This document shows positions 1,493 through 22,604 of a stretch of 49,901 bases of DNA, piece after piece (position 1 is the stretch's first letter; each line of letters starts with the position of its first letter). Source of the stretch: Patescibacteria group bacterium (GTDB taxonomy: Bacteria; Patescibacteriota; Minisyncoccia; Phycocordibacterales; Zambryskibacteraceae). Under the pieces are notes generated by a model that worked only from the letters and a program-made list of their open reading frames with translations, was not told the DNA's origin and did no database searches. The stretch is from positions 1 to 49,901 of the forward strand of contig JBBUAI010000014.1 of the NCBI GenBank assembly GCA_038058745.1, in the 5' to 3' direction. Position numbers and translations under genes: made by a program.

Positions 1493-1494
1493 GT

Positions 1495-3189: not shown

Positions 3190-4509
3190 ATGAGAAAATT
3201 TTTCTCTACCATCTCTCTCTTGATAATCCTTATCTTGGCTCCGGTTTATGCGATTCAAGCAGAGGCCCAAACGGTATTTTTGGACGGATCCAAACTTATG
3301 CCCCGAATCGAACTATCTCTTTCTCCTCGCGTTGGCAGTTTTGTCGAAGACTCCACCTTTGATATCCCTATCTTGATCAATACCAAAGGGGCGAGCATCA
3401 ACGGCTTAGAAATCACTATTAATTTTGACAAAGACAAACTTGAAATCGTCAAACCTTCAAGCGGCCAATCTATCGTCGGTGTCTGGCTCGCGCCTCCGAG
3501 CTACGATAATACCCGCGGTTTAGCGAGTTACATGGGGGTCATTCCCAGCGGCATTACGACCAGTTCTGGTTCGGTCGGCACTATTACTTTTAGAGCCAAG
3601 AAAACCGGCAAAGCAGTAGTTTCCGTGAGCGCGAATTCCAAAGTACTGTTGAATGACGGGCAAGGCACGGAAGCTACTGTCGAGGTGGGCAGGTCGGAAT
3701 ATACCATCATGGCAAGAGCGCCTGAAGGCGTCAGGGTTTTCTCGGAAACGCACCCGTTTCCCAGCGAGTGGTATAACAATGACAGCCCGGTGGTATTCTG
3801 GGAGAAGGATCCTGAGGTATCGGGATTTAGCTACCTGCTCGACGACAAGCCGCACACTATTCCGGAGAATACAATTAGCGCCAAGGATACCACCAAGTTC
3901 TTTGAGAATCTGGATGATGGCTTATGGTATTTCCACATTAAGGCCAACAGGAACGGGGCATGGGGAACGACAGGGCATTTCCTGATGCGCATCGATACGG
4001 CTCCTCCTGCTGACTTCAAGCCGGAAATAGATTATCTGTTGGCAGCCACGATCTTAAACGAGCGCGCCCTGGTTTCTTTCTTTACCACCGATAATCTCTC
4101 AGGCGTCGATCGTTATGAAATAGGAGTGATCGATAAAAGCCAGCCCGTTACTGTCTCGCCGGTTTTCGTCCAAGCGGAAAGTCCTTTCCAAGTGCCGCTT
4201 ACTGAGAGCAAATTAAGCGTGATAGTACGAGCGGTTGACAAAGCCGGCAATATTCGCGATGTCTCTATGGCAGTCGGATCGCCATCTCTGGTCGGCAAAT
4301 TCATGAAGAACAATCTTGTCTACATCCTCTTGTTCATCATCTTTGCTGGTTTAATCGGGCTCATATTACACTATCTGGTCGGGCATCATATAATAAGGTA
4401 CTTGCGCAAAGCGGCCGAACTGGTAAAAAAGGAGGAGCAAACCTCGGCAATAGAGCAAGACAAGGCCGAAAAGCCCAATGAAATTACTGATAATAACCCA
4501 GAAAGTTGA
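3190..4509 (+). CDS. Membrane-anchored cohesin-like surface protein (paralogue 3)
   Basis: Start moved to ATG 3190 (MRKFFSTISLLIILILAPVYA, signal peptide). Module INGLEITINFDKDKLEIVKPSSGQSIVGVWLAPPSYDNTRG. A second module (WYFHIKAN...IDTAPPADFKPEI...TTDNLSGVDRYE) is shared with 1495-2259. C-terminal TM helix (LVYILLFIIFAGLIGLIL). Confidence 0.8.
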   Translation: MRKFFSTISLLIILILAPVYAIQAEAQTVFLDGSKLMPRIELSLSPRVGSFVEDSTFDIPILINTKGASINGLEITINFDKDKLEIVKPSSGQSIVGVWLAPPSYDNTRGLASYMGVIPSGITTSSGSVGTITFRAKKTGKAVVSVSANSKVLLNDGQGTEATVEVGRSEYTIMARAPEGVRVFSETHPFPSEWYNNDSPVVFWEKDPEVSGFSYLLDDKPHTIPENTISAKDTTKFFENLDDGLWYFHIKANRNGAWGTTGHFLMRIDTAPPADFKPEIDYLLAATILNERALVSFFTTDNLSGVDRYEIGVIDKSQPVTVSPVFVQAESPFQVPLTESKLSVIVRAVDKAGNIRDVSMAVGSPSLVGKFMKNNLVYILLFIIFAGLIGLILHYLVGHHIIRYLRKAAELVKKEEQTSAIEQDKAEKPNEITDNNPES

Positions 4510-13184: not shown

Positions 13185-13835
13185 CTATTTCGTAAGGATT
13201 ATACCGTATCCGGTTGTCCAGGCGGTAAGCTGGGGTGCGACAGTTTTCTTGTCGAGCCACATCAAAAATTTTATGAGAGGGAACTGGACAGGCCGCCATG
13301 ATACGCCCTTGGCGAGGAAAAGATGCTGAAGCATTAAGCCGGCTACCGCAAATATTGTTCCCTGTCTTTCAATTTCCATTATTTTAAACCCGGCATCTCC
13401 GGAGGCATTCTTCCAGAACGCTTCCGTATATCGCCCATAGTCGTGCGGGTCTGCATGGATGCCGACCATAAAGGGTACTGTAATCAGGGCAATACCCCCC
13501 GGTTTTAACAGGCGATGTGCCTCTTTCAAGGCCTTCTTCGGCTCAGGCACATGTTCCAAGAGTTCCCCCATAATGACGATATCGCAGTAACTGTCCGGGA
13601 TGGGGATTTGCGCGGCATCGCTCACTATATCAGGATTCGTGGTGCGGTCGATATTAACGTATTTTACTTCCGCGCCGTAAATGCCAATGTCGAAAAGTCC
13701 TCGTTTGTTATCCTTTTTCCCGCCGATGTCAACAATTTTTTTTCCGGGACTAAAAAGCTTTTTATGGGAAAAGAAAAATCCGTCCACGAAATGGCGGCGC
13801 ACGGAGACGGAAAGAGATGTGCGTTCCTTACTCAT
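13185..13835 (-). CDS. Class I SAM-dependent methyltransferase
   Basis: Motif I IVDIGG, then IVIMGELLEHV, then LKPGGIALITVP (Methyltransf_11-like). Confidence 0.85.
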   Translation of the reverse strand: MSKERTSLSVSVRRHFVDGFFFSHKKLFSPGKKIVDIGGKKDNKRGLFDIGIYGAEVKYVNIDRTTNPDIVSDAAQIPIPDSYCDIVIMGELLEHVPEPKKALKEAHRLLKPGGIALITVPFMVGIHADPHDYGRYTEAFWKNASGDAGFKIMEIERQGTIFAVAGLMLQHLFLAKGVSWRPVQFPLIKFLMWLDKKTVAPQLTAWTTGYGIILTK

Positions 13836-15111
13836 TTTTTGCCATCAGGCGGCGCGCTTCCACCTCCCAAATTAAGAGGCCTAAGACGGCATTGGCGACA
13901 TTTGCCAAAACGCTTGCCAATACCAAGCCCCAAATCTGCCACATAAAGCCCATGATGATAAAAAGCGCGATGCGGACAATATGGCTCGTCAGATTGAACG
14001 CGTACATGGCCTTAATCATATTCTGCGCCGAAAAAACGCTGCCGAAGTAGACACTCACCGGCGTTACGATTACAGCGAGAGAAAGTACCCGAGAATACGT
14101 GACGGCATCAAGATAGCGCGGCAAAAATATTTTGAAAAGAAGCGGTACCAGAAACCAGTAACAAGCAAATAATGCTATGCCTGAAAGGAGAAGAATCGCC
14201 AGTCGCTTGTAAACTATCTCATGTATCTGGATAAGAGACCTCCTAGCTAGCCGGGGCAGGGCGATAGTGCCAGTATTCTTTATGAGACTTTTTAGCCGGT
14301 CCGGTCCGGCTAAAGCAAAGGTATAAACTGCCAGTGCGGCCGGTCCCGCCGCTTGGAAAAGGATGACACGGTCAATATATGAAGCAATCACGCCTATAAT
14401 ACCGGCGCCTGTGAAATGCAAGGATGTGCGCTTAAATTCCGCTACCTCTCCCGGTTTGGGAGAAGCTTTAATATTTTTGGTTACTGATTTGTAAACCAAA
14501 AAATTGGGCACGAAAGACATGATGGTATAAAGAGCGATAAGGATAAGGATATTGTCTGTAAGATAAAGCACTAAGACGGTAGCGGCCGCTCCGGTTACGG
14601 TAATAAGATTGGTAATCCGGCTTAAAATGTTGAAACACTTTCTGCCGGTCAGAACTTCTTTGTATATATGGAAAGCATCGGCGATCGGGTAAGCCAGAGA
14701 GAGGAGCGCCAAGGAGAAGGCAAAAAGCCCGTTGCCTTTATAACCGTAATAAGCGGCGACTATTAAGATAAGGGCTGCCGACAGGGAGTTATATTTGAGC
14801 TGAAGCGTGAGCGCGTAATGAGCGAGGTTATCGAAACCTCTGGCTGTGGCGCGCACCACGGCAGGGCCGGCGCCTGATAGGGTGAGAAAGGATAAAGAAG
14901 CCCCAAGAGACAAAAGATAGCTGTAAGTGCCGTAAGTCTCTCGGGACAAGAGGTTGCCGAACGCCACCATTGTTACCAAGGAACCCAAGATGCCCACGAC
15001 GAAAGAAAGAGTAATCCAAGAGCTGCCTTTGGCCAAATAGAGCATATCAAATTTGAACAGCCGCTCGCCCGAATGCAATGCCTGAAGCCCCTTATTTTTA
15101 AGGTTTTCCAT
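13828..15111 (-). CDS. Polysaccharide/oligosaccharide flippase (MOP/Wzx-like)
   Basis: 427-aa polytopic membrane protein with hydrophobic helices throughout. It is the first gene of the minus-strand glycosyltransferase operon. The layout is typical of Wzx/RfbX flippases. Confidence 0.75.
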   Translation of the reverse strand: MENLKNKGLQALHSGERLFKFDMLYLAKGSSWITLSFVVGILGSLVTMVAFGNLLSRETYGTYSYLLSLGASLSFLTLSGAGPAVVRATARGFDNLAHYALTLQLKYNSLSAALILIVAAYYGYKGNGLFAFSLALLSLAYPIADAFHIYKEVLTGRKCFNILSRITNLITVTGAAATVLVLYLTDNILILIALYTIMSFVPNFLVYKSVTKNIKASPKPGEVAEFKRTSLHFTGAGIIGVIASYIDRVILFQAAGPAALAVYTFALAGPDRLKSLIKNTGTIALPRLARRSLIQIHEIVYKRLAILLLSGIALFACYWFLVPLLFKIFLPRYLDAVTYSRVLSLAVIVTPVSVYFGSVFSAQNMIKAMYAFNLTSHIVRIALFIIMGFMWQIWGLVLASVLANVANAVLGLLIWEVEARRLMAKNE

Positions 15112-15121
15112 ATGGCTTTAC

Positions 15122-15138
15122 TGTGCTATCCTAGCACA
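15122..15138. promoter_or_regulatory. 7-bp inverted repeat (TGTGCTA-tcc-TAGCACA) in the 28-bp divergent intergenic gap
   Basis: Perfect inverted repeat read directly from the sequence. It lies between the flippase start (15111, -) and the KdsC-like start (15140, +). Confidence 0.3.
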
Positions 15139-15139
15139 C

Positions 15140-15664
15140 ATGCGAAGCCCTAAAAATTTCATTATTGACGTCGACGGCGTGATGACAGACGGCCGCTTTT
15201 ACTACACTGCAGAGGGCAAGGTAATGAAGGCCTTTGGTTCAGACGACCATGACGGTCTCCTGCTACTGAAACCGTATATGAACATCATTTTCGTGTCGGG
15301 CGACAGGAAGGGATTCGAGATAACCAAGAAAAGAATCGCTGATGATATGAAGTTTTCCCTTGAATTGGTGAGCACGGTAGGGCGGGTGGAGTGGATGCGA
15401 GAGAAGGGATTTAAACCGGAAGAATCCGTTTATATGGGCGATGGCATATTTGATGCTATTGTCTTCGATAAGGTCGGGTATGCCATAGCTCCTGCCAATA
15501 CTTTTTTTACTACGAAAAAGCATGCCGACTTCATCACTCAATCAGCCGGAGGCCACGGCGCGGTTGGCGAAGCCTGCATCCATCTTTTGAAAAAGTTCTT
15601 TAAACCGTTTGACCCTCTGAATTTCGAATTGGAAAAATCAAGCGGCGAGTGGAGTAATAAATGA
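15140..15664 (+). CDS. HAD-IIIA phosphatase, KdsC/YrbI family (sugar-acid or ketose phosphate phosphatase)
   Basis: FIIDVDGVMTDGRFYY...KAF...DG...VYMGDGIFDAIVFDKVGYAIAPAN...GGHGAVGEAC is collinear with E. coli KdsC (LDVDGVLSDG...KAFNVRDG...GDDLID...GGRGAVRE). Confidence 0.85.
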   Translation: MRSPKNFIIDVDGVMTDGRFYYTAEGKVMKAFGSDDHDGLLLLKPYMNIIFVSGDRKGFEITKKRIADDMKFSLELVSTVGRVEWMREKGFKPEESVYMGDGIFDAIVFDKVGYAIAPANTFFTTKKHADFITQSAGGHGAVGEACIHLLKKFFKPFDPLNFELEKSSGEWSNK

Positions 15665-17256
15665 AAAAGTCCAAATCACAATATAAAGTCTGCATTTTGG
15701 CGGCCGGAGCGGGAGCGGCCATGGACCATCTATCCGAGCACGTTAATCGCGCCGTCTTGCCGGTCAACAATAAGGCCGTCATTTCATATATCGTTGAAAA
15801 ATTTCCGAAAGGAACGGAGTTTGTGGTGGCGGTCGGGCACAAGAAAGAGACGGTTATAGATTATCTGAAACTCGCCCACCCGGAAAGGAAATTTACCTTT
15901 GTCGTTATCAAAAAATTTACCGGCCCGGGCACCGGTCCTGGCGCCTCCCTTCTCACTTGCCGGAAATATTTGCAAAGCCCATTTGTATTCTCGACGGCCG
16001 ACACTATCGTAACTGAAGACATACCGGCACCGGAGGTCAACTGGATGGGTATCGCGCCGGTGCGCGATACGGAGCATTATTGCACGATTAAAATCAGGAA
16101 TAATTCCATCTACCAGCTCGACGACAAGGTTAAGACCGACAATCACTTCGCCTTCATTGGTCTCGCCGGTGTGAAGGACCACAAGGATTTCTTCAGGGCG
16201 CTGGAATTGGACAAAAAAGCCATTGCCGGCGAAATCCAGGTTTCGAACGGCTTCAAGGCCCTAATCGAGAAGCACTTGGTGCCAGTGGGCTTTACCTGGT
16301 TTGATACCGGACACTTGGAGAATTACATCGAGACGAACAAAAATTTCTCCGGCGAAGCTAAGTTCGACTTCAGCAAATCGAACGAATTCCTCTATTTCGT
16401 CAATGGCCGCGTCATAAAATTTTTCGCTGACAAGAGCATTACCGACAAACGCCACGTCCGGGCTAAGAACGGGCTTCGAGGGCTGACGCCGAAAATAGAA
16501 GCCAGGCGCGGGCATTTCTATTCATATAAGAGAGTGGAAGGGCATACGCTCTACAGCATCTTGAATGCGAGTCTGGCGGGAGAATTTCTGCTTTGGGCCA
16601 AGAAGCATCTTTGGAAGAAGCTGAAGCTCTCTAAGAAGCAGCAAAAGGCATTCCAAGAAGCGGTGGTCAAATTCTACAAGCATAAGACGGAAGAAAGGGT
16701 GGCCGCTTTCGAAAAGAAAAAGAATCAGAAAGAAGCGGTGCTTATCAACGGCGCCAAAGTGCCTTCGACCAAAGAATTGTTAAAGAAGATAGATTGGGAA
16801 CATCTGACTCACGGCGAACCCGTAAACTTCCACGGCGATTTGCAATTCGACAATATTCTGGTCAACCCGAAAGCCAGGAATGCCAAGGGTAAATTCATCC
16901 TGCTTGACTGGCGGCACGAATTCGGTGGCATGATCGAGGCGGGCGACCTTTATTACGATTTGGCCAAGCTCTACGGCGGCATGGTTATTTCTTACCCTCT
17001 CATCAAGGAAGGGATGTTCTCGGCCAATACGGATGGCAAGGAAGCGTTCTATCATTACTTCGTGAAGAACGACCTCATAGAAGCGCGGGAGCATTATGAA
17101 GAATTTCTGCTCGCGAACGGCTATGATTTGAAAAAAGTCAAGATTCTGACCGCCATCATTTTTCTCAACATGGCGCCTCTCCACAATGCTCCGTTCGACG
17201 AAATGCTCTCGCACATGGGCCGCAAGATGCTTCATAAAACGCTAGAGATGCGATAA
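15661..17256 (+). CDS. Bifunctional sugar-phosphate nucleotidyltransferase / APH-type (choline or sugar) kinase fusion
   Basis: The N-terminal roughly 230 aa is NTP-transferase-like (KVCILAAGAGAAM...LPVNNK). The C-terminus carries the kinase Brenner motif HGDLQFDNILV and LLDWRHEFG, as in LicA/AmgK-type kinases. Confidence 0.75.
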   Translation: MKKSKSQYKVCILAAGAGAAMDHLSEHVNRAVLPVNNKAVISYIVEKFPKGTEFVVAVGHKKETVIDYLKLAHPERKFTFVVIKKFTGPGTGPGASLLTCRKYLQSPFVFSTADTIVTEDIPAPEVNWMGIAPVRDTEHYCTIKIRNNSIYQLDDKVKTDNHFAFIGLAGVKDHKDFFRALELDKKAIAGEIQVSNGFKALIEKHLVPVGFTWFDTGHLENYIETNKNFSGEAKFDFSKSNEFLYFVNGRVIKFFADKSITDKRHVRAKNGLRGLTPKIEARRGHFYSYKRVEGHTLYSILNASLAGEFLLWAKKHLWKKLKLSKKQQKAFQEAVVKFYKHKTEERVAAFEKKKNQKEAVLINGAKVPSTKELLKKIDWEHLTHGEPVNFHGDLQFDNILVNPKARNAKGKFILLDWRHEFGGMIEAGDLYYDLAKLYGGMVISYPLIKEGMFSANTDGKEAFYHYFVKNDLIEAREHYEEFLLANGYDLKKVKILTAIIFLNMAPLHNAPFDEMLSHMGRKMLHKTLEMR

Positions 17257-17262
17257 GGTAGA

Positions 17263-18279
17263 ATGATGCAAAATAAAGGGACAGAAAATCCCCAACTGGC
17301 CTTGGGACCGATGAGTTCGGAAATCATCGAGGCGGTGTTCTATTATTCAAATTTCTTCCGTAAGCCTTTGATGCTTATCGCTTCCAAGAACCAGATAGAC
17401 CATGCCGGCGGCTACGTCAACGGCTGGACCACTGACGAGTATATGTATTTCATCAAAAATATGAGGAAGCAGTATCCCTTGGCCTCGGTTAAGATTTGCC
17501 GAGACCATTGCGGTCCCGGTTTCAACGGCAGTCATGATATCAAAGACGTTTATCGCACCATTAGAACGGATATTAGGGCGGGCTTTGACCTCATGCATAT
17601 AGACTTCTGCATGTATCAGGGCTCTCAAAGCGAAAGATTGGAAGCAGCCAGGAAGGCGGTCGAATATTGTCTTGAGCTAAATCCTGATATAGAGCTCGAG
17701 ATCGGCACGGACGAGAATCAGGGCACTAATTACAGTTTGCCGAACATTAGGGAATGGGAAAGAGAAATAGACTTTTTCCAAAAGTTTTGCAAACCAACAT
17801 TTTATGTAATTCAGACTGGAAGTTTGGTTATGGAAATAAACCAGGTGGGCAATTTCAATAAATCCTTTGTCGAAAAAGTCTCCAAGCTCATACGTGCTAA
17901 AGGGCTTAAGCTTAAAGAGCATAATGCTGATTATTTGTCTAAAGAAGAAATTCGCGACAGAATAGGTTTAGTGGATGCCATGAACGTTGCGCCGCAATTA
18001 GGAGTTATCCAAACCCTGACGGTGCTTAGCCGAGCCCGGATATATGGCGTGAAGATTGATGATTTCCTGGAAGAATCCTACGAAGGCGGCAAGTGGAAGA
18101 AATGGATGAAGAACAACGGCCCGGAAAATAAAATGCTCTGCGCCATTATCGCCGGGCATTACCACTTCGCCTCGCCGGCTTATCAAGCGATAATCCGAGA
18201 GCTTGAGGAGAGGGAGGACATCAAAGAGACGATTATCAACTCTATTTTAAGTGTGATTAAGCACTATGTCGGGAAATAA
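17263..18279 (+). CDS. GatZ/KbaZ-family TIM-barrel protein (tagatose-bisphosphate aldolase accessory / ketose-6-P epimerase family)
   Basis: LMLIASKNQIDHAGGYVNGWTTDEY and ICRDHCGPGF parallel the GatZ/AgaZ segments [23 protein letters not shown] and LGGDHLGP. Confidence 0.55.
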   Translation: MMQNKGTENPQLALGPMSSEIIEAVFYYSNFFRKPLMLIASKNQIDHAGGYVNGWTTDEYMYFIKNMRKQYPLASVKICRDHCGPGFNGSHDIKDVYRTIRTDIRAGFDLMHIDFCMYQGSQSERLEAARKAVEYCLELNPDIELEIGTDENQGTNYSLPNIREWEREIDFFQKFCKPTFYVIQTGSLVMEINQVGNFNKSFVEKVSKLIRAKGLKLKEHNADYLSKEEIRDRIGLVDAMNVAPQLGVIQTLTVLSRARIYGVKIDDFLEESYEGGKWKKWMKNNGPENKMLCAIIAGHYHFASPAYQAIIRELEEREDIKETIINSILSVIKHYVGK

Positions 18280-18572
18280 AACAATTCTTATAACCGGTTC
18301 AAGTCGTGGTATCGGCGCTGCTACCGCGTGTCTGGCTAAGAAATACGGAGCAAATAAATAACGCAGGGATAAGCATTTCTAAGCCATTTTTAGAATTAAC
18401 TCAGAAAGATTGGACCGAAAGAATATACAATCAAATCAAGGAGGTACCTCTCGACCGAGCCGCCAAGCTGGAAGAAATCGCGGAAATCATCTTATTTGCA
18501 GCAAGCGACAAGGCAAGCTATATTAACGGCCAGACAATTATCGCCGATGGCGGTTACAGCATAAGGAGCTGA
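18266..18572 (+). pseudogene. Decayed short-chain dehydrogenase/reductase (SDR) remnant
   Basis: ATG 18266 gives MSGNKTILITGSSRGIGAATACLAKKYGANK*, which has the Rossmann TGxxxGIG motif and stops at 18359-18361. Another frame continues INNAGISI...TQKDW...VPLDRAAKLEEIAEIILFAASDKASYINGQTIIADGGY. The central part with the catalytic Ser/Tyr/Lys is missing. Confidence 0.7.
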
Positions 18573-18574
18573 CT

Positions 18575-18961
18575 ATGTTCGAAAGCAAGCCCTTCAAGGT
18601 GGTAACCAAGCCATGGGGAAGGGAAATCTGGCTTGAGTTGAATGACCGCTACTGCTACAAACGTATCTTTGTGAACGCTGGCACTAGGACGAGCTTCCAG
18701 TACCACGACAAGAAGTACGAGACCAACTACATCATCTCTGGCGAGGCCGAGGTCTGGCTCGAGAACGTCCATGGCGTGGTGGAGAAATTCCGGGTGAAAG
18801 AAGGGGACTTCTTCAACGTCCCGCCGCCGAGGAAACACAGGATCATCGCTTTGACAGACCTCATCCTCCAGGAGGTCTCGACTCCGGAAGTCGACGACGT
18901 CATTCGCATTGCAGACGACGCGGGCCGCGGCGACGGGCGCATCGAGAGTGAACACAAGTAA
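18575..18961 (+). CDS. Cupin-fold sugar-phosphate isomerase (type II phosphomannose-isomerase-like)
   Basis: KPWGREIWLELNDRYCYKRIFVNAGTRTSFQYHDKKYETNYIISGEAEV...HRI...QEVSTPEVDDVIRIADDAGR matches the PMI type II cupin pattern (KPWG..E.W...K.I.V..G...S.Q.H..R.E...V..G). Confidence 0.8.
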   Translation: MFESKPFKVVTKPWGREIWLELNDRYCYKRIFVNAGTRTSFQYHDKKYETNYIISGEAEVWLENVHGVVEKFRVKEGDFFNVPPPRKHRIIALTDLILQEVSTPEVDDVIRIADDAGRGDGRIESEHK

Positions 18962-18983
18962 GAAGAAAGGAAAAAGAAAACCA

Positions 18984-19019
18984 GGGCGGTAGTGTTGCGT
19001 GCAACGCTACCGCCCTTTT
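18984..19019 (+). terminator. Rho-independent terminator after the cupin gene
   Basis: GGGCGGTAGTGTTGC-gt-GCAACGCTACCGCCC, a roughly 15-bp stem with one T.G pair, followed by TTTT. Confidence 0.75.
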
Positions 19020-19033
19020 GTTATATTAGCCGC

Positions 19034-20737
19034 ATGCAATACAAGGTCTTATTAACCACTTCCGGAACGGGTTCGCGGCTAGGGGAATTGACCAAGAATA
19101 CTAATAAGGCGCTCGTGCCCGTCAACGGGCGGCCTACTATCGAATATGTTCTGGATTTGTATCCGAAGGATATTACGTTCGTAGTCACTCTCGGTTATCT
19201 GGGCCAGAGCGTGAAGGATTATCTGCTCAAAAATTACCAAGACAGAAATTTCGAATTTGCCTGGGTAGATAAATATGAAGGCCCTGGTTCAAGCGTTGGC
19301 TACTCAATGCTCCAGGCCAAAGAATATCTTCAGTGTCCGTTTATTTTCCACGCTTGCGATACGATTCTTACTGAAAAGATACCGGCACCGGAAACCAATT
19401 GGATAGGCGGCTATGTCGAGGATTGGCCGAAGAGCGAGATGAAAACGGACAGCTACAATACCTGTTCTGTCGAAAACGGCTATGTAGTGAGATTGAATGA
19501 AAGGGGCACTCCCGGCTTTGACGCCATTTACCTCGGCTTTGACGGCATCTTTGACCATAAACTTTATTGGGAAATATTAGAATCTCTCTATCAAGCTGAC
19601 CCGATGAGTTCCAAACTTCATCCCATTCAGGTTTTAAATGAAATGCTTAGAAGGGGAGTGAAATTCAAATTTACCCCGTATTCCGTTTGGCTTGATACCG
19701 GCAACCTTCCAGCACTCGCGAAAACCGAAGAGTTTCTAAAGACTTCAATGGACAAAAAAATCGGGTTAGTGATACAGGGGCCACTCATATCCATTGGCCG
19801 GACGGGGGGTAAGATGCGGCAGTCGGTGGAACAATTGCAGAAGGAAGGAGGGGTAATTCATTACGACTGCCGGGAGAATATCAATAAGATAATAAAAGAA
19901 TTCGGATATCTTTTTGATGAGATTGTGATTTCCACTTGGGACAATGAAGTGAAAGAGGGGGAAAATTTTCCAGGAGCCAAACTCGTTTCTCAACCCGACC
20001 CGGGCGGTATTAAACAAGCGGGACATTACAAAGACAATAATAAATACCGCCAATTTTTGAGCACTCACCTGGGTCTGGTTGAGCTTGAGAAAGATAACAT
20101 TGATTATGCGGTGAAAACTCGCACTGATATTTATCTTGATTTCGGAAAGTTGCTCGGTTCTTTTTTTAAAAACGATACGAAGAAGATTGGCGCGACTGTT
20201 ATGCATCCAAAAACTTTTTTGCTACATGACCTCTACTTCGTCGCAGAATTAAAAAAGCTGAAGGATTTCTGCGAAGCGATACTTTCATTCGATAGATTCG
20301 AATTTATCCCATCGGTCCATCGTGAAATGGTCTTAAAACATGCTTATGTCGAGTATAGGAATAAAATTGGCGTACCGGACTGGGCGTACTTCCCTGTATA
20401 TCCGCCCACGGGAGTAAATGCCGCAACAAGGAAAATTTTTGATTACATGTTTGAAAATGTTTATTTCTCTCTCCCACCATCTATATTTAAAGAAACATTA
20501 TGGCGCGGCACTTACTTCCCGGAAGACCATGTATCATCGCTTACCAAGGGTAATGTAAGTTCGAGGAAATATAATGTCCCGGCGTTCATTAGCACAGACT
20601 GGCAGCGTTATTTTGCTTTTCGCCAAGAGGTATATGGGAAGAAGATGGTGTTACAGGACAAAATTACCGCAAACCTCGGCAAGTGGGGGTGGGATTTGTG
20701 GAATCTCACTCGCAAGGTGGTCAATATGCTACGATAA
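19034..20737 (+). CDS. NTP-transferase domain fused to a WavE-like polysaccharide-synthesis domain
   Basis: Start moved to ATG 19034 (MQYKVLLTTSGTGSRLG), just past the terminator. The N-terminal domain is paralogous to that of 15661-17256. The C-terminal part (GLVIQGPLIS...ISTWDNE...YAVKTRTDIYLD) resembles the WavE LPS-synthesis family pattern. Confidence 0.65.
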   Translation: MQYKVLLTTSGTGSRLGELTKNTNKALVPVNGRPTIEYVLDLYPKDITFVVTLGYLGQSVKDYLLKNYQDRNFEFAWVDKYEGPGSSVGYSMLQAKEYLQCPFIFHACDTILTEKIPAPETNWIGGYVEDWPKSEMKTDSYNTCSVENGYVVRLNERGTPGFDAIYLGFDGIFDHKLYWEILESLYQADPMSSKLHPIQVLNEMLRRGVKFKFTPYSVWLDTGNLPALAKTEEFLKTSMDKKIGLVIQGPLISIGRTGGKMRQSVEQLQKEGGVIHYDCRENINKIIKEFGYLFDEIVISTWDNEVKEGENFPGAKLVSQPDPGGIKQAGHYKDNNKYRQFLSTHLGLVELEKDNIDYAVKTRTDIYLDFGKLLGSFFKNDTKKIGATVMHPKTFLLHDLYFVAELKKLKDFCEAILSFDRFEFIPSVHREMVLKHAYVEYRNKIGVPDWAYFPVYPPTGVNAATRKIFDYMFENVYFSLPPSIFKETLWRGTYFPEDHVSSLTKGNVSSRKYNVPAFISTDWQRYFAFRQEVYGKKMVLQDKITANLGKWGWDLWNLTRKVVNMLR

Positions 20738-20741
20738 TAGT

Positions 20742-22604
20742 ATGGATAGAAATACCCTTAAGCCGGTCATCTACACAGGCCTCTTTCTTGTGCCATTCAT
20801 CCCGTTTCTTGTCTCGAGTGAATTCTTTTTCCCCTTCATCACCACTAAAGCGTTCGTTTGGCGTATAATCGTCGAAATAATATTTGCCGCATGGGTTCTC
20901 CTCGCGCGAAACCACCCCGAATACCGTCCCAGGAAATCCGTCATCCTTTACGCTCTCGCATCCTTTCTCGCCATTGTCGGTCTCTCTGATTTGTTCGGCG
21001 TCGCGCCGATAAAAAGTTTCTGGTCGAATTACGAGCGCATGGAGGGATTCATTTCCCTCATCCATCTCGGAATGTTTTTCCTGATAATCGGTTCTGTATT
21101 TAAGGAAGCGGACTGGAAGCGCTGGTGGAATACTTCGCTTGCGGCATCGGCTCTGATGATTTTCTACTGTCTCTTCCAGCTTCTGGGCGCGGTTCAAATA
21201 CATCAGGGCGGCGTACGGGTGGACGGCACTCTGGGCAATGCTTCTTATCTTGCCGTCTATATGCTCTTCCATATATTCATCGCCGCCTTCTTCATGCTCC
21301 GCGAGAAAAAAGACACAACGCTTAAATGGATTTACGGTACTCTAATCCTTCTTCAGATGTTCATACTCTATGAGACAGCTACCCGTGGGGCAATTCTCGG
21401 TCTTCTCGGAGGTCTGGCCTTGGTGGCTCTCCTCAATGTAAGAAACAGGGAAAATAGAGTCATGGAGCGCGCCAGTATCGCCGTGCTAGTAGCTCTTATT
21501 GTCGTGGTTAGTTGGTTTTACCTCTCCAGGAATTCAAGTTTCGTGCAAAACTCGCCGGTGCTCGAACGCTTCGCGAATATCTCGACGGAGGAGCTGAAGC
21601 AGGGCGGCCGCTCATTCGTCTGGCCGATGGCTATCAAAGGATTCAAGGAGAGGCCAATCCTGGGCTGGGGCCAGGATAATTTCAATTACGTCTTCGACGA
21701 ACACTATGACCCTAGGATGTATATGCTTGAGCCGTGGTTTGACCGCGCCCACAATATCTTTCTCGACTGGATGGTGGCGTCGGGCATTCTCGGCATCCTG
21801 TCCTATCTGTCTCTTTATATAGCGCTTCTCTACTCTACCTGGAGAAAGGCCGGCTTCTCTTATTCGGAAAAGTCGATTTTATCAGGTCTTCTGGCGGCGT
21901 ACTTCTTCCACAACTTCTTCGTCTTTGACCAGCTGATAAGCTATATCCTCTTCGCGACTCTCCTGTCCTATGTGCATAGCCGGACGGAAGTTTCTCTTGT
22001 GAAGACGGTACCCGCGATAAAAAGCGGCGAGCCGTCTCCGCTCGCGGCGGCATTGGTACTCGGGTCCCTCGCCGTTTCCATGTATTGGATAAACATAAAG
22101 CCGATAATTGCAAACACCAGTCTCATCAATGCTTTGGTTCATGCCCAAGGTTCTCCGGAAGACCAGATTCTCTCCATCGCCGACTTCAAGCGAGCACACG
22201 GGGAGTCCCGCCTAGGACGTCCGGAAGTGGTCGAGCAGGTAGTTACCGCCACCCCTGGTCTTATCAGCGGAACTCTCTCGGTGGAAGAGAAAAACGATTT
22301 TTACAGCTTTGCCAATAATGCCATCGTCGGGCAGGCCGAAGATCTTAGCACGGACGCGCGCTACCAGCTCATCGCCGGAGTCTTTCACACGCAAACCGGT
22401 TCTCTGGACGAAGCGGTAAAGTATTTGACGCGCGCCAAGGAGCTTATTCCAGGTAAACCGCAGGTTTATATTGAACTCGCACGGGTTTATTATGCGAAAG
22501 GAGACAAAAACAAAGCGATTGAAACTCTGCGCTTCGTTTCAGAGATTGTTCCAGAACTTGCTCCGCAGATGGAAGAATATATAAGACAAATTCAAAATAA
22601 TTAA
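20742..22604 (+). CDS. O-antigen-ligase/polymerase-like (Wzy_C) polytopic membrane protein with C-terminal TPR region
   Basis: Start set to MDRNTLKPVIY (20742), 5 nt after the upstream stop. Wzy_C-type motifs YETATRGAILG and GWGQDNF...RAHNIFLDWMVASGILG. The C-terminus is TPR-like (AVKYLTRAKELIPGKPQVYIELARVYYAKGDKNKAIE). Confidence 0.75.
   Translation: MDRNTLKPVIYTGLFLVPFIPFLVSSEFFFPFITTKAFVWRIIVEIIFAAWVLLARNHPEYRPRKSVILYALASFLAIVGLSDLFGVAPIKSFWSNYERMEGFISLIHLGMFFLIIGSVFKEADWKRWWNTSLAASALMIFYCLFQLLGAVQIHQGGVRVDGTLGNASYLAVYMLFHIFIAAFFMLREKKDTTLKWIYGTLILLQMFILYETATRGAILGLLGGLALVALLNVRNRENRVMERASIAVLVALIVVVSWFYLSRNSSFVQNSPVLERFANISTEELKQGGRSFVWPMAIKGFKERPILGWGQDNFNYVFDEHYDPRMYMLEPWFDRAHNIFLDWMVASGILGILSYLSLYIALLYSTWRKAGFSYSEKSILSGLLAAYFFHNFFVFDQLISYILFATLLSYVHSRTEVSLVKTVPAIKSGEPSPLAAALVLGSLAVSMYWINIKPIIANTSLINALVHAQGSPEDQILSIADFKRAHGESRLGRPEVVEQVVTATPGLISGTLSVEEKNDFYSFANNAIVGQAEDLSTDARYQLIAGVFHTQTGSLDEAVKYLTRAKELIPGKPQVYIELARVYYAKGDKNKAIETLRFVSEIVPELAPQMEEYIRQIQNN

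What the first reader, a model, noticed from the sequence alone, without database searches (positions are those of the whole stretch)
15140..20737. Non-canonical nucleotide-sugar module: KdsC-like phosphatase, GatZ-like TIM-barrel protein, cupin isomerase and two NTP-transferase fusions
The co-directional genes encode five activities in this order. They are a KdsC/YrbI-type HAD phosphatase, an NTP-transferase fused to an APH/choline-kinase-type kinase (HGDLQFDNILV), a GatZ/KbaZ-family protein, a PMI-type cupin isomerase, and an NTP-transferase fused to a WavE-like domain. There is no KdsA/NeuB-type synthase and no classical RmlA-D or Gal/Glc enzyme. GatZ-family proteins include ketose-6-phosphate 4-epimerases. 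One reading is: hexose-6-P, then isomerase, then GatZ-like epimerase, then phosphatase, then anomeric kinase, then nucleotidyltransferase, giving an NDP-activated ketose or other rare sugar. This combination inside a polysaccharide locus is one I do not recognise from described pathways.
Basis: inference. Interest (0 to 1): 0.65.

Follow-up and report, generated by a model that had tools for sequence, protein, structure and literature searches.

The report
Uncharacterised widespread nucleotide-sugar gene cassette
The genes are real and form the local copy of a cassette conserved in many bacteria and archaea, which most likely turns a ketose phosphate into a nucleotide-activated rare sugar for a surface glycan by a route I could not find described.

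Summary
The five reading frames exist and every domain call holds: a KdsC-type HAD phosphatase, an NTase fused to an APH-type kinase, a short GatZ-like TIM barrel, a PMI-type cupin and an NTase fused to a WavE-like domain.

Four corrections apply:
- An SDR pseudogene lies at 18266-18572.
- A strong terminator-like hairpin (18983-19016) separates the cupin from the second NTase gene.
- That gene starts at 19034. It is a one-off end-to-end fusion of two genes that are separate in every other sequence found.
- The NTase domain of the kinase fusion lacks the signature arginine, so the second NTase probably does the activation here.

HAD + NTase-kinase + GatZ-like + cupin is a conserved cassette. 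All four partners lie within 6 kb in 41 of 54 and 39 of 50 well-flanked loci. These come from CPR bacteria, DPANN archaea, Proteobacteria, Campylobacter concisus, Chlorobium and picocyanobacteria. Natural fusion proteins link the parts.

The best reading is ketose phosphate, then C4-epimer or aldol product, then aldose phosphate, then 1,ω-bisphosphate, then aldose-1-phosphate, then NDP-sugar. This is the logic of the heptose and lincomycin-octose pathways, carried out by unrelated enzymes. The sugar is unknown. No paper describing the cassette was found.

The parts
13828..15111 (-). Wzx-type (MOP/Polysacc_synt) flippase, transcribed divergently from the cassette. It is part of the glycan assembly context, not of the cassette.
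   Evidence: PF01943 at 6.8e-16. The same gene flanks the syntenic loci L167 and L169.
15140..15664 (+). KdsC/YrbI-type (cap-less, type C0) HAD sugar-phosphate phosphatase, 174 aa. Proposed to remove the distal (ω) phosphate.
   Evidence: TIGR01670 at 4.6e-20 but below its cut-off. PDB relatives Aq2171 at 1.3e-17 and several KdsC; the DxDGV and GDxxxD motifs align. Present within 6 kb of the GatZ-like gene in 41/54 and 41/50 loci.
15661..16365 (+). NTase domain of the NTase-kinase fusion (the whole gene is 15661-17256, 531 aa). It has a sugar-1-phosphate nucleotidylyltransferase fold, but the signature GxG(S/T)R reads GAGAAM here, so it is probably weakened or inactive.
   Evidence: The Foldseek top 50 are GalU, RmlA, HddC and MurU. 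The start codon overlaps the HAD stop by 4 nt.
16366..17256 (+). APH/ELK-superfamily kinase domain from an orphan clade. Proposed to be the anomeric (C1) sugar-phosphate kinase.
   Evidence: PF01636 matches 10/10 family members, best 5.1e-7. K, HGDxxxxN and DWR are invariant across 15 sequences that are 29-45% identical to the window's domain. No significant PDB sequence match. A standalone 299-aa orthologue that is 40% identical sits in the syntenic locus L167.
17263..18279 (+). Short (338 aa) GatZ-like class II aldolase-superfamily TIM barrel, called 'GatZL' in this report. Proposed to be a metal-dependent retro-aldol/aldol enzyme acting on a ketose ω-phosphate.
   Evidence: PF08013 at 32.3 bits against 26.7. 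AF2 pLDDT 85.7. Foldseek: 2fiq and 3txv at TM 0.76-0.81 normalised to the query, then class II FBP/TBP aldolases and YdjI. D81-H82, E146 and H220 are invariant. D81-H82 aligns directly with GatZ D87-H88. E146 and H220 match GatZ Glu171 and His257 by motif. 2313 homologues and 298 representatives at E<=1e-30.
18266..18572 (+). Pseudogene of a classical short-chain dehydrogenase (SDR). Only residues 1-29, about 78-100 and 181-237 of about 238 remain, in two reading frames. The catalytic Ser-Tyr-Lys region is deleted.
   Evidence: tblastn with intact SDRs from L005 and L003. An intact SDR sits at this position in L001, L003 and L169, and in 11/54 loci overall.
18575..18961 (+). Type II PMI-like cupin, 128 aa. 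Proposed to be the ketose-phosphate to aldose-phosphate isomerase.
   Evidence: PF01050 at 7.2e-8 and TIGR01479 C-terminal part. The family signature KPWGxE..SxQYHxxKxET..HR..ExSTPExDDVxR is conserved. Present in 50/54 and 47/50 loci. A natural GatZL-cupin fusion exists, P0373.
18983..19016 (+). Intrinsic-terminator-like hairpin with a 15-bp stem, followed by UUUUGUUAUAU. It probably ends the core cassette transcript or attenuates read-through.
   Evidence: Free energy -29.4 kcal/mol, z -4.95, with 0 of 200 shuffles folding as well.
19034..19747 (+). Second NTase ('NT2') with an intact GTGSRLG motif. It is a standalone 230-243 aa gene in the other loci examined. Here it reads straight into the WavE-like gene. 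It is probably the active nucleotidylyltransferase of this locus.
   Evidence: 56-64% identical end to end to standalone NT2 in L011, L022, L044, L049, L167 and L169. PDB LicC 3.9e-9, MurU 4.1e-5.
19748..20737 (+). WavE-like domain, which is a standalone 327-350 aa protein in the other genomes examined. It is a candidate transferase that uses the activated product. It is a lineage-specific accessory, not a conserved cassette member.
   Evidence: PF07507 at 29.9 bits against 27. 72-75% identical from residue 1 to standalone proteins. Of the best 120 of 450 homologues, only the window's own protein has both halves. In L167 the NT2 stop overlaps the WavE start, ATGA.
20742..22604 (+). Wzy_C (O-antigen ligase/polymerase-type) membrane protein with C-terminal TPR repeats. 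It is assembly context. The true start is ATG 20742, not 20574.
   Evidence: PF04932 at 3e-22. Orthologues in L167 and L169 align from residue 57 or 59 of the long ORF.

Best explanation
The core cassette at 15140-18961 is a dedicated de novo pathway. It makes a nucleotide-activated rare aldose for the Wzx/Wzy-type surface glycan encoded around it. The second NTase at 19034-19747 works with it.

Proposed steps (all inferred; none was assayed):
1. The GatZ-like TIM-barrel enzyme uses its conserved Asp-His / Glu / His metal site to break and re-form the C3-C4 bond of a common ketose ω-phosphate, either fructose-6-P or sedoheptulose-7-P. The favoured outcome is the C4-epimer: tagatose-6-P, or mannoheptulose-7-P. 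The latter name is my own stereochemical reasoning.
2. The PMI-like cupin isomerises that ketose phosphate to the aldose ω-phosphate of the talo or galacto series.
3. The APH-type kinase domain phosphorylates the anomeric position, giving an aldose-1,ω-bisphosphate.
4. The KdsC-type HAD phosphatase removes the distal phosphate, giving aldose-1-phosphate.
5. An NTase makes the NDP-sugar. In this genome that is probably NT2, because the NTase domain fused to the kinase has lost its signature arginine.

Glycosyltransferases of the locus, with the WavE-like domain as a candidate, then use the product.

The locus is a trimmed derivative of a longer version. The optional SDR is a pseudogene, and NT2 and the WavE-like gene have fused.
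For: Shown:
- Each fold or family assignment is established.
- The GatZ catalytic core is retained. D81-H82, E146 and H220 are invariant in 23 sequences. They correspond to E. coli GatZ Asp87-His88, Glu171 and His257. E. coli GatZ and KbaZ carry F6P to T6P C4-epimerase activity in vivo (PMC11907403).
- The four genes travel together in 41/54 and 39/50 well-flanked loci across bacteria and archaea, in two different gene orders.
- Natural fusion proteins exist: NTase-kinase-GatZL (P0432, 897 aa) and GatZL-cupin (P0373, 430 aa).
- The NTase fold matches sugar-1-phosphate NTases such as GalU, RmlA, HddC and MurU.
- A syntenic locus, L167, has the same flanks, and its SecA is 77% identical. It keeps the KdsC-type HAD (53%), the cupin, the kinase (40%), NT2 (64%) and WavE (74%). 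In place of the GatZ-like gene it has a split transketolase plus a GmhA-like isomerase. That means another way of making a ketose ω-phosphate and isomerising it.
- Arg-less NTase-kinase fusions co-occur with a second NTase in 7/7 loci, against 5/57 for those with Arg or Lys. Fisher p is 1.3e-6.

Inferred:
- The order of the steps rests on analogy with GmhA/HddA/GmhB/HddC and with LmbR/N/P/K/O (PMC4351081).
Against: - No enzyme was assayed.
- The kinase cannot be placed in any characterised subfamily, so an anomeric sugar substrate is an assumption.
- Residues that distinguish GatZ are not kept. GatZ Glu44 aligns with invariant Ile39, and Lys279 corresponds by motif to Asn241. The substrate or the outcome may therefore differ from F6P/T6P epimerisation.
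- L167 keeps cupin domains alongside a GmhA-like isomerase, so the cupin may do something other than the sole aldose-ketose step.
- KdsC relatives with known function act on ulosonic-acid phosphates, not on aldose bisphosphates.
- Some Kaiserbacteria loci carry a canonical heptose pathway right beside the cassette, so the product there is not simply D,D-heptose.
- D-talose is not, to my knowledge, a common glycan sugar.
- The locus counts are not phylogenetically independent.
Confidence: 0.45

Rival explanations
1. Same five-step logic, but step 1 forms a C-C bond rather than epimerising. The GatZ-like enzyme keeps the metal-bound dihydroxyacetone enediolate and adds it to a different aldose phosphate, or condenses DHAP with one. 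This builds a higher-carbon ketose phosphate (C7 or C8), and the product is an NDP-heptose or NDP-octose. The precedent is lincomycin biosynthesis: LmbR transaldolase, LmbN isomerase, LmbP kinase, LmbK phosphatase and LmbO NTase.
For: - In the syntenic locus L167 the GatZ-like gene is replaced by a transketolase, a C-C bond-transferring enzyme, plus a GmhA-like isomerase.
- After GatZ, the nearest folds are true class II aldolases, including YdjI.
- KdsC-type and GmhB-type phosphatases act on long-chain sugar phosphates.
- IMPase/FBPase-family genes sit in 6/54 loci. They could remove a C1 phosphate from a ketose bisphosphate.
- The Lmb pathway is documented in PMC4351081.
Against: - The closest characterised relatives, GatZ and KbaZ, are epimerases, and fbaA, gatY and kbaY could not replace them.
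- The region after the second metal histidine (H-N-A-D-Y) resembles GatZ (H-S-T-D-Y) rather than FBP aldolases. This comparison is my reading.
- The IMPase-like gene is absent from most loci, and from this window's locus.
Confidence: 0.2
2. The first reader's order, which follows salvage-type logic as in MurNAc recycling (MupP phosphatase, AmgK kinase, MurU NTase). The sugar ω-phosphate, or a ketose-1-phosphate from a DHAP aldolase reaction, is first dephosphorylated to the free sugar. It is then phosphorylated at C1 and activated. The product could in principle be an NDP-ketose.
For: - APH-family anomeric kinases such as AmgK and NahK act on free sugars (from my own knowledge).
- Both NTases give weak MurU matches.
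- The gene set is equally compatible with this order. No tool result separates the two orders.
Against: - A PMI-type isomerase homologous to enzymes that act on phosphorylated sugars is always present.
- The syntenic L167 cassette contains a GmhA-like isomerase. In the heptose pathway that step is followed by kinase and then phosphatase.
- Known routes to NDP-sugars that lack a mutase go through the bisphosphate (heptose; Lmb).
Confidence: 0.15
3. The NTase-kinase fusion is a LicC-LicA-type pair (like the LicCA fusion I recall from Treponema). It activates a small alcohol or polyol as a CDP-alcohol. The alcohol could be choline-like, glycerol-like, or an alditol made with the optional SDR. Its phospho-group is then transferred to the glycan as a phosphodiester decoration.
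For: - The best PDB sequence hit of both NTases is LicC, at 1.7e-4 and 3.9e-9.
- The domain order, NTase then kinase, equals that of LicCA (from my own knowledge).
- JGI labels some members 'choline kinase'.
- A CDP-alcohol phosphatidyltransferase follows the cassette in L002.
- A classical SDR of the sorbitol-6-P dehydrogenase type is optional.
Against: - The LicC matches cover only the N-terminal nucleotide-binding part (residues 7-73 and 7-122). The whole-domain fold matches sugar-1-P NTases.
- The kinase gave no Choline_kinase family match.
- The window's locus has no LicB or LicD.
- This reading gives no role to the strictly linked GatZ-like enzyme and PMI-like cupin, or to the fusion proteins that join them to the NTase-kinase.
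Confidence: 0.08
4. The genes are neighbours by chance, or the cassette here is a decaying remnant that makes nothing. In its favour are the SDR pseudogene, the Arg-less NTase domain and the gene fusion.
For: Signs of decay in this particular copy: two internal deletions in the SDR, GAGAAM in place of GxGSR, and a unique read-through fusion.
Against: - Chance is excluded by the recurrence of the set and by the fusion proteins.
- All family-invariant residues of the GatZ-like protein and of the kinase domain are intact in the window copy, because the invariant columns were computed with it included.
- SDR-less cassettes are the majority, 43 of 54.
- Arg-less fusions regularly pair with an intact second NTase, which this locus has.
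Confidence: 0.04

Closest known systems
GDP-D-glycero-α-D-manno-heptose pathway (GmhA isomerase, HddA kinase, GmhB phosphatase, HddC NTase) and the ADP-heptose variant with bifunctional HldE
   Same: It has the same proposed chemical logic: ketose ω-phosphate, then aldose ω-phosphate, then 1,ω-bisphosphate, then aldose-1-phosphate, then NDP-sugar. As in HldE, the kinase and the NTase are fused. The phosphatase is a cap-less HAD. The setting is a surface-glycan locus.
   Different: None of the proteins is an orthologue. The isomerase is a cupin, not SIS. The kinase is APH-type, not GHMP or ribokinase. The phosphatase is KdsC-type, not GmhB-type. The NTase scores 28 bits against the 300-bit HddC cut-off. 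An extra GatZ-like step precedes the isomerase. A canonical heptose pathway lies next to the cassette in L003, so the products differ.
Lincomycin GDP-octose pathway: LmbR (transaldolase), LmbN (isomerase), LmbP (kinase), LmbK (phosphatase), LmbO (guanylyltransferase) (PMC4351081)
   Same: It has five activities, including a TIM-barrel enzyme that remodels the carbon skeleton of a ketose phosphate before isomerase, kinase, phosphatase and NTase.
   Different: LmbR is a class I transaldolase, whereas here the enzyme is a metal-dependent GatZ-like protein. The other four are heptose-pathway homologues, unlike here. Lmb makes an antibiotic precursor in actinomycetes, not a surface glycan.
GatZ/KbaZ family (fructose-6-P to tagatose-6-P C4-epimerases, formerly called 'aldolase chaperones'; PDB 2fiq, 3txv)
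   Same: It is the closest fold (TM 0.76-0.81 normalised to the query). The conserved Asp-His, Glu and His metal and base residues are shared.
   Different: The window protein is 338 aa, not about 420 aa, and only 14-16% identical in the structural alignment. It fails the equivalog cut-offs (26 bits against 569). The family-specific Glu44 and Lys279 positions hold Ile and Asn. There is no GatY partner. The context is biosynthetic rather than catabolic.
MurNAc recycling route MupP (HAD phosphatase), AmgK (APH-type anomeric kinase), MurU (NTase)
   Same: It combines a HAD phosphatase, an APH-superfamily kinase and a small RmlA-like NTase to reach an NDP-sugar without a mutase.
   Different: The MurU models match only weakly (E 7e-4 to 9e-3, far below cut-off). 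The kinase matched no AmgK-like family. MurNAc recycling has no GatZ-like or cupin step and is a salvage route, not a de novo one.
LicA/LicC phosphocholine activation (and LicCA fusions)
   Same: It has the same domain order, NTase then APH/choline-kinase-superfamily kinase. LicC is the best solved sequence relative of both NTases.
   Different: There was no choline-kinase family match and no LicB or LicD. The NTase fold is closer to sugar-1-P NTases. LicABC has no counterpart to the obligatory partners, the GatZ-like enzyme, the cupin and the KdsC-like phosphatase.
CMP-Kdo pathway (KdsD isomerase, KdsA synthase, KdsC phosphatase, KdsB NTase)
   Same: It uses a KdsC-type phosphatase, an isomerase, a TIM-barrel C-C enzyme and an NTase in one glycan-precursor route.
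   Different: The cassette has no KdsA/NeuB-type PEP-dependent synthase and no KdsB-type cytidylyltransferase. A kinase is present, which ulosonic-acid activation does not need. The HAD scores below the KdsC cut-offs.

Membership tests
GatZ/KbaZ family (PF08013, TIGR02810) | Class II aldolase-type TIM barrel closest to solved GatZ structures | tested here: met
   AF2 model pLDDT 85.7. Foldseek ranks 1-5 are 2fiq and 3txv at E 2e-13 and TM 0.76-0.81 normalised to the query. FBP/TBP aldolases follow.
GatZ/KbaZ family (PF08013, TIGR02810) | Curated model score above cut-off | tested here: inconclusive
   Pfam PF08013 scores 32.3 against 26.7, but only over residues 20-129. NCBIfam equivalogs TIGR02810, NF012002 and NF011626 score 16-26 bits against cut-offs of 569-707.
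GatZ/KbaZ family (PF08013, TIGR02810) | Predicted catalytic Asp plus His/Glu/His metal ligands (E. coli GatZ Asp87, His88, Glu171, His257; PMC11907403) | tested here: met
   D81-H82, E146 and H220 are invariant in 23 family members. D81-H82 aligns directly with GatZ. H220 aligns with the 'AHSTDY' histidine of 3txv. E146 is matched by motif only.
GatZ/KbaZ family (PF08013, TIGR02810) | Family-specific residues Glu44, Lys279 and Cys20, length of about 420 aa, and a GatY/KbaY partner | tested here: not met
   Glu44 aligns with invariant Ile39. The Lys279 position corresponds by motif to Asn241, and Cys20 to Gly or Pro. The length is 338 aa. No class II aldolase partner gene was seen in the locus.
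KdsC / YrbI phosphatase (TIGR01670, NF007019) | Cap-less HAD with KdsC-like sequence and catalytic motifs | tested here: met
   PDB Aq2171 at 1.3e-17 and KdsC entries at 1e-14. The DxDGV and GDxxxD motifs align.
KdsC / YrbI phosphatase (TIGR01670, NF007019) | Score above the curated cut-off, and KdsA/KdsB in the pathway | tested here: not met
   72 bits against 107 and 69 against 208. No KdsA/NeuB or KdsB in the locus.
LicC/LicA phosphocholine activation | Choline-kinase family kinase, LicC-type NTase over its whole length, and LicB/LicD partners | tested here: not met
   The kinase matches only the general APH model. The LicC matches cover residues 7-73 and 7-122 only. No LicB or LicD in the window's locus.
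Heptose pathway HddA/HddC (or HldE), GmhA, GmhB | GHMP or ribokinase-type kinase, SIS isomerase, GmhB-type HAD, and an HddC equivalog | tested here: not met
   HddC model NF049965 scores 27.7 and 21.1 bits against 300. There are no GHMP or SIS domains in the cassette. The HAD is KdsC-type.
Sugar-1-phosphate nucleotidylyltransferases (RmlA/GalU/MurU fold) | Fold | tested here: met
   All of the Foldseek top 50 are sugar-1-P NTases, with E down to 6e-12 and TM up to 0.74 normalised to the target.
Sugar-1-phosphate nucleotidylyltransferases (RmlA/GalU/MurU fold) | Signature GxG(T/S)R motif with the phosphate-binding arginine | tested here: not met
   This row concerns the NTase domain fused to the kinase. 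It reads GAGAAM where most relatives have G(S/T)R(M/L). The motif is intact as GTGSRLG in NT2 at 19034-19747.
APH / eukaryotic-like kinase superfamily (PF01636) | Catalytic loop HxDxxxxN, metal-binding Asp and ATP-binding Lys | tested here: met
   K, H-G-D...N and D-W-R are invariant in 15 sequences that are 29-45% identical to the window's domain. PF01636 matches 10/10 members, best 5.1e-7. The window copy itself scores 20-22 bits against 23.2.
APH / eukaryotic-like kinase superfamily (PF01636) | Assignment to a sugar-kinase subfamily (AmgK, NahK, MtnK) or to a non-sugar one | tested here: inconclusive
   No NCBIfam subfamily match. PDB profile searches give only E > 0.1 matches to YihE, the ACAD11 kinase domain and a macrolide phosphotransferase around the catalytic loop. 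The fold search was swamped by the NTase domain.
Type II phosphomannose isomerase (ManC C-terminal cupin, PF01050) | Pfam score above cut-off, and the signature Q-x-H...E...H-R...DD-V-R | tested here: met
   33.1 bits against 23.6. The residues are conserved in 15 cassette cupins. The same pattern is visible in the Nitrotoga ManC translation.
WavE (PF07507) | Pfam score above cut-off | tested here: met
   28.2 and 29.9 bits against 27, matching 76 of 305 model positions only. The function of the family is not established.

The most novel reading that the evidence does not exclude
The cassette encodes an undescribed, very widely distributed de novo route to a nucleotide-activated rare sugar. 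Carriers include CPR bacteria, DPANN archaea, marine picoplankton, Campylobacter concisus and Chlorobium. The sugar would be a C4-epimeric hexose such as D-talose, or a non-canonical heptose or octose. The route would give the GatZ family its first biosynthetic role. It would also define a new clade of anomeric sugar kinases in the APH superfamily and a KdsC-type phosphatase working on aldose bisphosphates. Interchangeable front ends, either GatZ-like plus cupin or transketolase plus GmhA-like, and optional tailoring genes (SDR, C-methyltransferase-like) would then generate glycan diversity.
Probability: 0.5. Interest if true: 0.8.

Novelty: new variant of a known kind. Interest (0 to 1): 0.7.

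Why it matters
If the reading is right, at least several hundred, and probably more than a thousand, species of bacteria and archaea make a surface sugar by a pathway that annotation pipelines currently label as 'tagatose-bisphosphate aldolase non-catalytic subunit', 'choline kinase' and 'hypothetical protein'.

Several things would follow from defining the product:
- It would assign function to four protein families of a few thousand members each.
- It would show what ultra-small CPR and DPANN cells put on their surfaces, which is relevant to how they attach to host cells.
- It would explain part of the hypervariable glycan islands of Prochlorococcus, SAR11 and similar plankton.
- It would add an enzymatic route to rare NDP-sugars for glycoengineering.

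The work also gives directly testable side claims. One is that an arginine-less NTase domain is complemented by a second NTase. Another is that a GatZ-like enzyme and a transketolase are interchangeable front ends.

Tried and rejected
Tried without result:
- Sequence and profile searches of the kinase domain against PDB, using a narrow and a broad alignment, gave nothing significant.
- NCBIfam gave no kinase subfamily.
- The fold search of the whole fusion returned only NTase hits, so the kinase fold could not be compared.
- A single-sequence scan with the Nitrotoga GatZ-like protein found only four close relatives and cost one genome scan.
- A literature search for WavE returned only unrelated uses of the word.
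- Four literature searches for the gene combination found no paper describing the cassette.
- The Streptantibioticus megaplasmid hit has no annotation, and high-GC ORF calling there was uninformative.

Considered and rejected:
- Methionine-salvage or DHAP-shunt enzymes (MtnK, MtnB, MtnC, MtnD share superfolds). The aldolase-like protein here is a TIM barrel, not the AraD type, and that pathway has no place for an NTase.
- The CDP-2-glycerol Gtp1-3 type pathway. The SDR is optional, and that pathway has no role for the GatZ-like enzyme or the cupin.
- The CMP-Kdo, Kdn or NulO pathways. There is no PEP-dependent synthase, and a kinase is present.
- An RmlC- or FdtA-type NDP-sugar epimerase or isomerase role for the cupin. 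Its signature is that of type II PMI.

Full report
OBSERVATION

They are:
- 15140-15664 (174 aa)
- 15661-17256 (531 aa)
- 17263-18279 (338 aa)
- 18575-18961 (128 aa)
- 18992-20737 (581 aa)

The surrounding 4.4-22.6 kb is a Wzx/Wzy-type surface-glycan locus. It holds four GT4/GT1-type and one GT2 glycosyltransferases, four methyltransferases, a NodU-like carbamoyltransferase, a Polysacc_synt flippase and a Wzy_C/TPR protein. Housekeeping genes follow: SecA, a DsbB-like gene, RNase P RNA and tRNAs. No KdsA/NeuB, RmlA-D, Gal/Glc, LicB or LicD gene is present in the locus. The nearest relatives in the species-level genome collection are labelled Candidatus Saccharibacteria. The GatZ-like protein is 79% identical and the kinase domain 88%. 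The organism is therefore a CPR/Patescibacteria bacterium.

FAMILY ASSIGNMENTS

The first protein is a cap-less KdsC/YrbI-type HAD. TIGR01670 scores 72 bits, below its cut-off of 107. PDB Aq2171 matches at 1.3e-17 and several KdsC entries at about 1e-14, with the DxDGV and GDxxxD motifs aligned.

The second protein has two domains.
- The N-terminal domain was modelled with the whole protein (mean pLDDT 83). Its best 50 Foldseek matches are all sugar-1-phosphate nucleotidylyltransferases: GalU, RmlA, HddC and MurU.
- The C-terminal domain matches only the general APH model. All ten members tested hit PF01636, the best at 5.1e-7.
- An ATP-site Lys, HGDxxxxN and DWR are invariant across 15 sequences that are 29-45% identical to the window's domain.
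- No characterised kinase subfamily could be assigned.

The third protein gives a confident TIM-barrel model (pLDDT 85.7). Its closest solved folds are the two GatZ structures, 2fiq and 3txv, with TM 0.76-0.81 normalised to the query. Class II FBP/TBP aldolases, sulfofructose-phosphate aldolase and YdjI come next.

The cupin carries the signature of the C-terminal domain of type II phosphomannose isomerases: KPWGxE...SxQYHxxKxET...HR...ExSTPExDDVxR. PF01050 scores 33.1 against 23.6.

The last protein combines a LicC/MurU-like NTase with a WavE-like domain.

CORRECTIONS TO THE ANATOMY

(i) SDR pseudogene. Between the GatZ-like gene and the cupin lies the wreck of a classical SDR gene (18266-18572).
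- Residues 1-29 are in one frame. Residues of about 78-100 and 181-237 are in another.
- The catalytic Ser-Tyr-Lys segment is deleted.
- Intact SDR genes occupy this position in related loci.

(ii) Terminator-like hairpin. A 15-bp GC-rich hairpin followed by UUUUGUUAUAU sits at 18983-19016. Its free energy is -29.4 kcal/mol with z -4.95, and none of 200 shuffles folds as well.
- It separates the core cassette from the next gene.
- It overlaps the GTG at 18992, so that gene must start at ATG 19034. This gives 567 aa, the length on record.

(iii) One-off gene fusion. The 567-aa protein is an end-to-end fusion of two genes that are separate everywhere else I looked.
- The first is a 230-243-aa NTase ('NT2'), 56-64% identical over its whole length.
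- The second is a 327-350-aa WavE-like protein, 72-75% identical from its first residue.
- Among the best 120 of 450 homologues, only the window's own protein has both halves.
- In the syntenic locus L167 the NT2 stop codon overlaps the WavE start (ATGA). In the window the stop is gone and the frames coincide.

(iv) Wzy_C start. The Wzy_C gene starts at 20742.

(v) Missing arginine. The NTase domain fused to the kinase reads GAGAAM where most relatives have GxG(S/T)R(M/L). In RmlA-type enzymes this arginine contacts the NTP phosphates (established knowledge).
- Among loci with at least 4 kb of flank, all 7 fusions without Arg or Lys at this position have a second NTase gene nearby. Only 5 of 57 with Arg or Lys do.
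- Fisher p is 1.3e-6.
- Two of the seven are the same contig, and the loci are not phylogenetically independent.
- NT2 in the window has an intact GTGSRLG. NT2 is therefore probably the working NTase here and belongs functionally to the pathway, even though WavE does not.

THE CASSETTE IS CONSERVED AND WIDESPREAD

The GatZ-like protein has 2313 homologues in the 90%-clustered collection. Those listed are more than 60% identical across CPR bacteria and DPANN archaea. At 50% clustering, 298 representatives reach E <= 1e-30.

The two sets partly overlap.

I searched 78 and 80 fetched loci with the window's proteins.
- Among loci with at least 5 kb on both sides, the HAD, the NTase, the kinase and the cupin all lie within 6 kb of the GatZ-like gene in 41/54 and 39/50.
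- The cupin alone is present in 50/54 and 47/50.
- The NTase and kinase are contiguous in 47 and 42 loci.

Two gene orders occur:
- Order 1: HAD, NTase-kinase, GatZ-like, optional SDR, cupin. This is seen in CPR, DPANN, Bdellovibrionales and Omnitrophota.
- Order 2: HAD, GatZ-like, a 278-aa protein with no Pfam match that looks glycosyltransferase-like to me, cupin, NTase-kinase, and a methyltransferase with a C-methyltransferase-type C-terminal domain.
- Order 2, with or without the 278-aa gene, is seen in Nitrotoga, a Legionella MAG, Luminiphilus, Pelagibacteraceae, Prochlorococcus/Synechococcus, Chlorobium ferrooxidans DSM 13031, Rhodoblastus acidophilus DSM 142, Aliiglaciecola lipolytica E3 and Campylobacter concisus.

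Natural fusion proteins tie the parts together:
- NTase-kinase-GatZ-like (P0432, 897 aa)
- GatZ-like-cupin (P0373, 430 aa)

WavE is not a conserved partner, being present in 1 of 54 loci.

SYNTENIC RELATIVES SHOW HOW THIS COPY AROSE

L169 is 72-73% identical in the core proteins. Its order is flippase (opposite strand), then HAD, NTase-kinase, GatZ-like, intact SDR, an extra cupin, cupin, NT2, an IS200-like fragment, WavE and Wzy_C. The window is a trimmed version of that arrangement.

L167 has the same flanks: the flippase, Wzy_C at 59%, SecA at 77%, then DsbB and MYG1. Its slot contains a different cassette:
- a KdsC-type HAD (53%)
- a double cupin (31%)
- an SDR
- an HxpB-like HAD-IA phosphatase
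- a GmhA-like SIS isomerase
- a standalone kinase (40% identical to the window's kinase domain)
- a split transketolase
- NT2 (64%) and WavE (74%)

So the phosphatase, the kinase, the NTase and the cupin are kept. The GatZ-like enzyme is exchanged for a transketolase plus a sedoheptulose-7-P-isomerase-like protein. That is another way of producing a ketose ω-phosphate and isomerising it.

MECHANISM

E. coli GatZ and KbaZ were long called aldolase chaperones. In vivo they carry fructose-6-P to tagatose-6-P C4-epimerase activity. A Zn-dependent retro-aldol/aldol mechanism is predicted, with Asp87 as base and His88, Glu171 and His257 as ligands (PMC11907403).

The window protein and its family keep these residues as D81-H82, E146 and H220. 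They differ at positions that distinguish GatZ from aldolases. Glu44 aligns with invariant Ile39, and Lys279 corresponds by motif to Asn241. The catalytic machinery is therefore present, but the specificity is probably different.

I propose five steps:
1. The GatZ-like enzyme remodels a common ketose ω-phosphate at C3-C4. C4-epimerisation is favoured. Exchange of the aldehyde partner, giving a higher-carbon sugar, is the main alternative.
2. The PMI-like cupin makes the aldose ω-phosphate.
3. The kinase phosphorylates C1.
4. The KdsC-type phosphatase removes the distal phosphate.
5. An NTase makes the NDP-sugar.

This is the logic of GmhA/HddA/GmhB/HddC. It is also the logic of lincomycin's LmbR (transaldolase), LmbN (isomerase), LmbP (kinase), LmbK (phosphatase) and LmbO (guanylyltransferase) (PMC4351081). 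Here it would be carried out by enzymes of other families.

What is shown: the folds, the conserved catalytic residues, the genomic coupling, the fusion proteins and the synteny. What is inferred: every substrate, the order of kinase and phosphatase, and the identity of the sugar.

By my own stereochemical reasoning, candidates are D-talose or D-galactose-series hexoses derived from F6P. From S7P they are D-glycero-D-talo or D-glycero-D-galacto heptoses, reached through mannoheptulose-7-P.

The optional SDR (with an extra cupin) and the methyltransferase of order 2 would be tailoring steps that diversify the product.

RIVALS

- Aldol construction of a C7 or C8 sugar is supported by the transketolase replacement and by IMPase/FBPase-like genes in 6/54 loci.
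The gene set fits it equally well. The PMI-type and GmhA-type isomerases and the heptose and octose precedents make it less likely.
- A LicCA-type CDP-alcohol reading fits the LicC hits and the domain order. It gives no role to the obligatory GatZ-like enzyme and cupin, and no LicB or LicD is present.
- Chance neighbourhood is excluded.
- Complete decay of this copy is unlikely, because all family-invariant residues of the GatZ-like protein and the kinase domain are intact.

COMPARISON AND NOVELTY

The cassette works like the heptose and octose pathways, but it fails every membership test for them, for LicABC and for CMP-Kdo (see the membership table).

The GatZ-like protein belongs to the GatZ/class II aldolase superfamily as a separate short subfamily. 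It is not a GatZ orthologue.

Four literature searches over the held library found no description of the gene combination. Where public records name these proteins at all, they call them 'class II D-tagatose-bisphosphate aldolase, non-catalytic subunit', 'choline kinase', 'NTP transferase domain-containing protein' or 'hypothetical protein'. Most papers of subscription journals were not searched, so prior work cannot be excluded.

I rate it a new variant of a known kind: a known biosynthetic logic carried out by a new, widespread enzyme set with an unknown product.

A SECOND CONTEXT FOR THE GATZ-LIKE/CUPIN PAIR

On Sinorhizobium symbiosis-type plasmids and in Amycolatopsis halotolerans, the pair is followed by a DegT-type aminotransferase and a HAD-IA phosphatase, plus an MFS transporter or a DeoR regulator. 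There is no kinase or NTase. A GatZ-like-aminotransferase fusion also exists (P0462).

This suggests that the pair supplies a carbonyl-bearing sugar phosphate to different downstream modules. It is consistent with a ketose phosphate as the product of the GatZ-like enzyme.

LIMITS

- Nothing was assayed.
- The kinase subfamily and the nucleotide specificity are unknown.
- The locus counts come from tblastn with E <= 1e-5 on fetched loci and are not corrected for shared ancestry.
- The correspondences E146/Glu171 and N241/Lys279 rest on motif comparison, not on a printed structural alignment.

Noticed in passing
window 18266-18572: SDR pseudogene between the GatZ-like gene and the cupin. Three surviving pieces lie in two frames, and the catalytic region is deleted. 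Intact orthologues occupy the same position in related loci.
   Followed up: yes
window 18983-19016: Very stable terminator-like hairpin (15-bp stem, -29.4 kcal/mol, z -4.95) directly after the cupin gene. It overlaps the GTG that opens the long ORF, which implies a separate or attenuated transcription unit for the NT2-WavE and Wzy genes.
   Followed up: partly
window 19034-20737 (junction at 19745-19750): Read-through fusion of a normally standalone NTase and a normally standalone WavE-like gene. It is unique among the homologues found. A sequencing or assembly error at the junction cannot be excluded from this one sequence.
   Followed up: yes
window 15700-15715 (residues 16-21 of the NTase-kinase): The signature GxG(S/T)R motif reads GAGAAM. 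Fusions without the arginine co-occur with a second NTase gene (7/7 against 5/57 loci), which suggests a degenerate NTase domain complemented in trans.
   Followed up: yes
L167 1456-9990 (ENA groundwater metagenome contig, syntenic with the window): The same genomic slot holds an alternative cassette: a KdsC-type HAD, a double cupin, an SDR, a HAD-IA phosphatase, a GmhA-like isomerase, a standalone APH-type kinase, a split transketolase, NT2 and WavE. The GatZ-like gene is replaced by a transketolase plus a SIS isomerase.
   Followed up: partly
L165 10025-13501 (Sinorhizobium sp. CCBAU 05631 plasmid pSS05631a) and L163 7836-12576 (Amycolatopsis halotolerans): The GatZ-like/cupin pair is followed by a DegT/DnrJ/EryC1 aminotransferase and a HAD-IA phosphatase, plus a DeoR regulator or an MFS transporter, with no kinase or NTase. 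This may be a route to a free amino sugar, aminopolyol or iminosugar precursor. A GatZ-like-aminotransferase fusion protein (P0462) also exists.
   Followed up: partly
L078/L087 (Nitrotoga sp. HW29), L103 (Chlorobium ferrooxidans), L150 (Campylobacter concisus) and many others: A second cassette architecture adds a methyltransferase with a C-methyltransferase-type C-terminal domain (PF08484). Most copies, though not the C. concisus ones, also add a 278-aa protein with no Pfam match. A GT90-like protein or a cupin-ended 389-aa protein often follows.
   Followed up: partly
L003/L011 12039-16086 (Candidatus Kaiserbacteria): A canonical heptose-pathway gene set lies immediately downstream of the cassette and two IMPase-family genes. 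It comprises an NTase, a GmhB-like HAD, a GHMP kinase, a SIS isomerase and an epimerase/dehydratase.
   Followed up: no
window 20574-20741: The 676-aa Wzy_C ORF overlaps the WavE-like gene by 164 nt. Orthologues align only from residue 57 or 59, so the real start is ATG 20742.
   Followed up: yes
window 185-4509: Proteins with Big_6 plus dockerin type I domains, and with a cohesin domain, lie next to the glycan locus of a CPR bacterium. This may be a cohesin-dockerin surface assembly.
   Followed up: no
window 30467-35551: A 1694-aa ORF coincides with a sharp swing in GC skew, about -0.3 at 31-33 kb and then +0.2 at 33-34 kb, and with a low-GC stretch at 30-31 kb.
   Followed up: no
phage-collection record MH319741.1 ('Marine virus AG-345-E15'), 15099-16010: A GatZ-like homologue, 29% identical over 93% of the query, lies in an unannotated record labelled as a marine virus from a single-cell amplification.
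   Followed up: no
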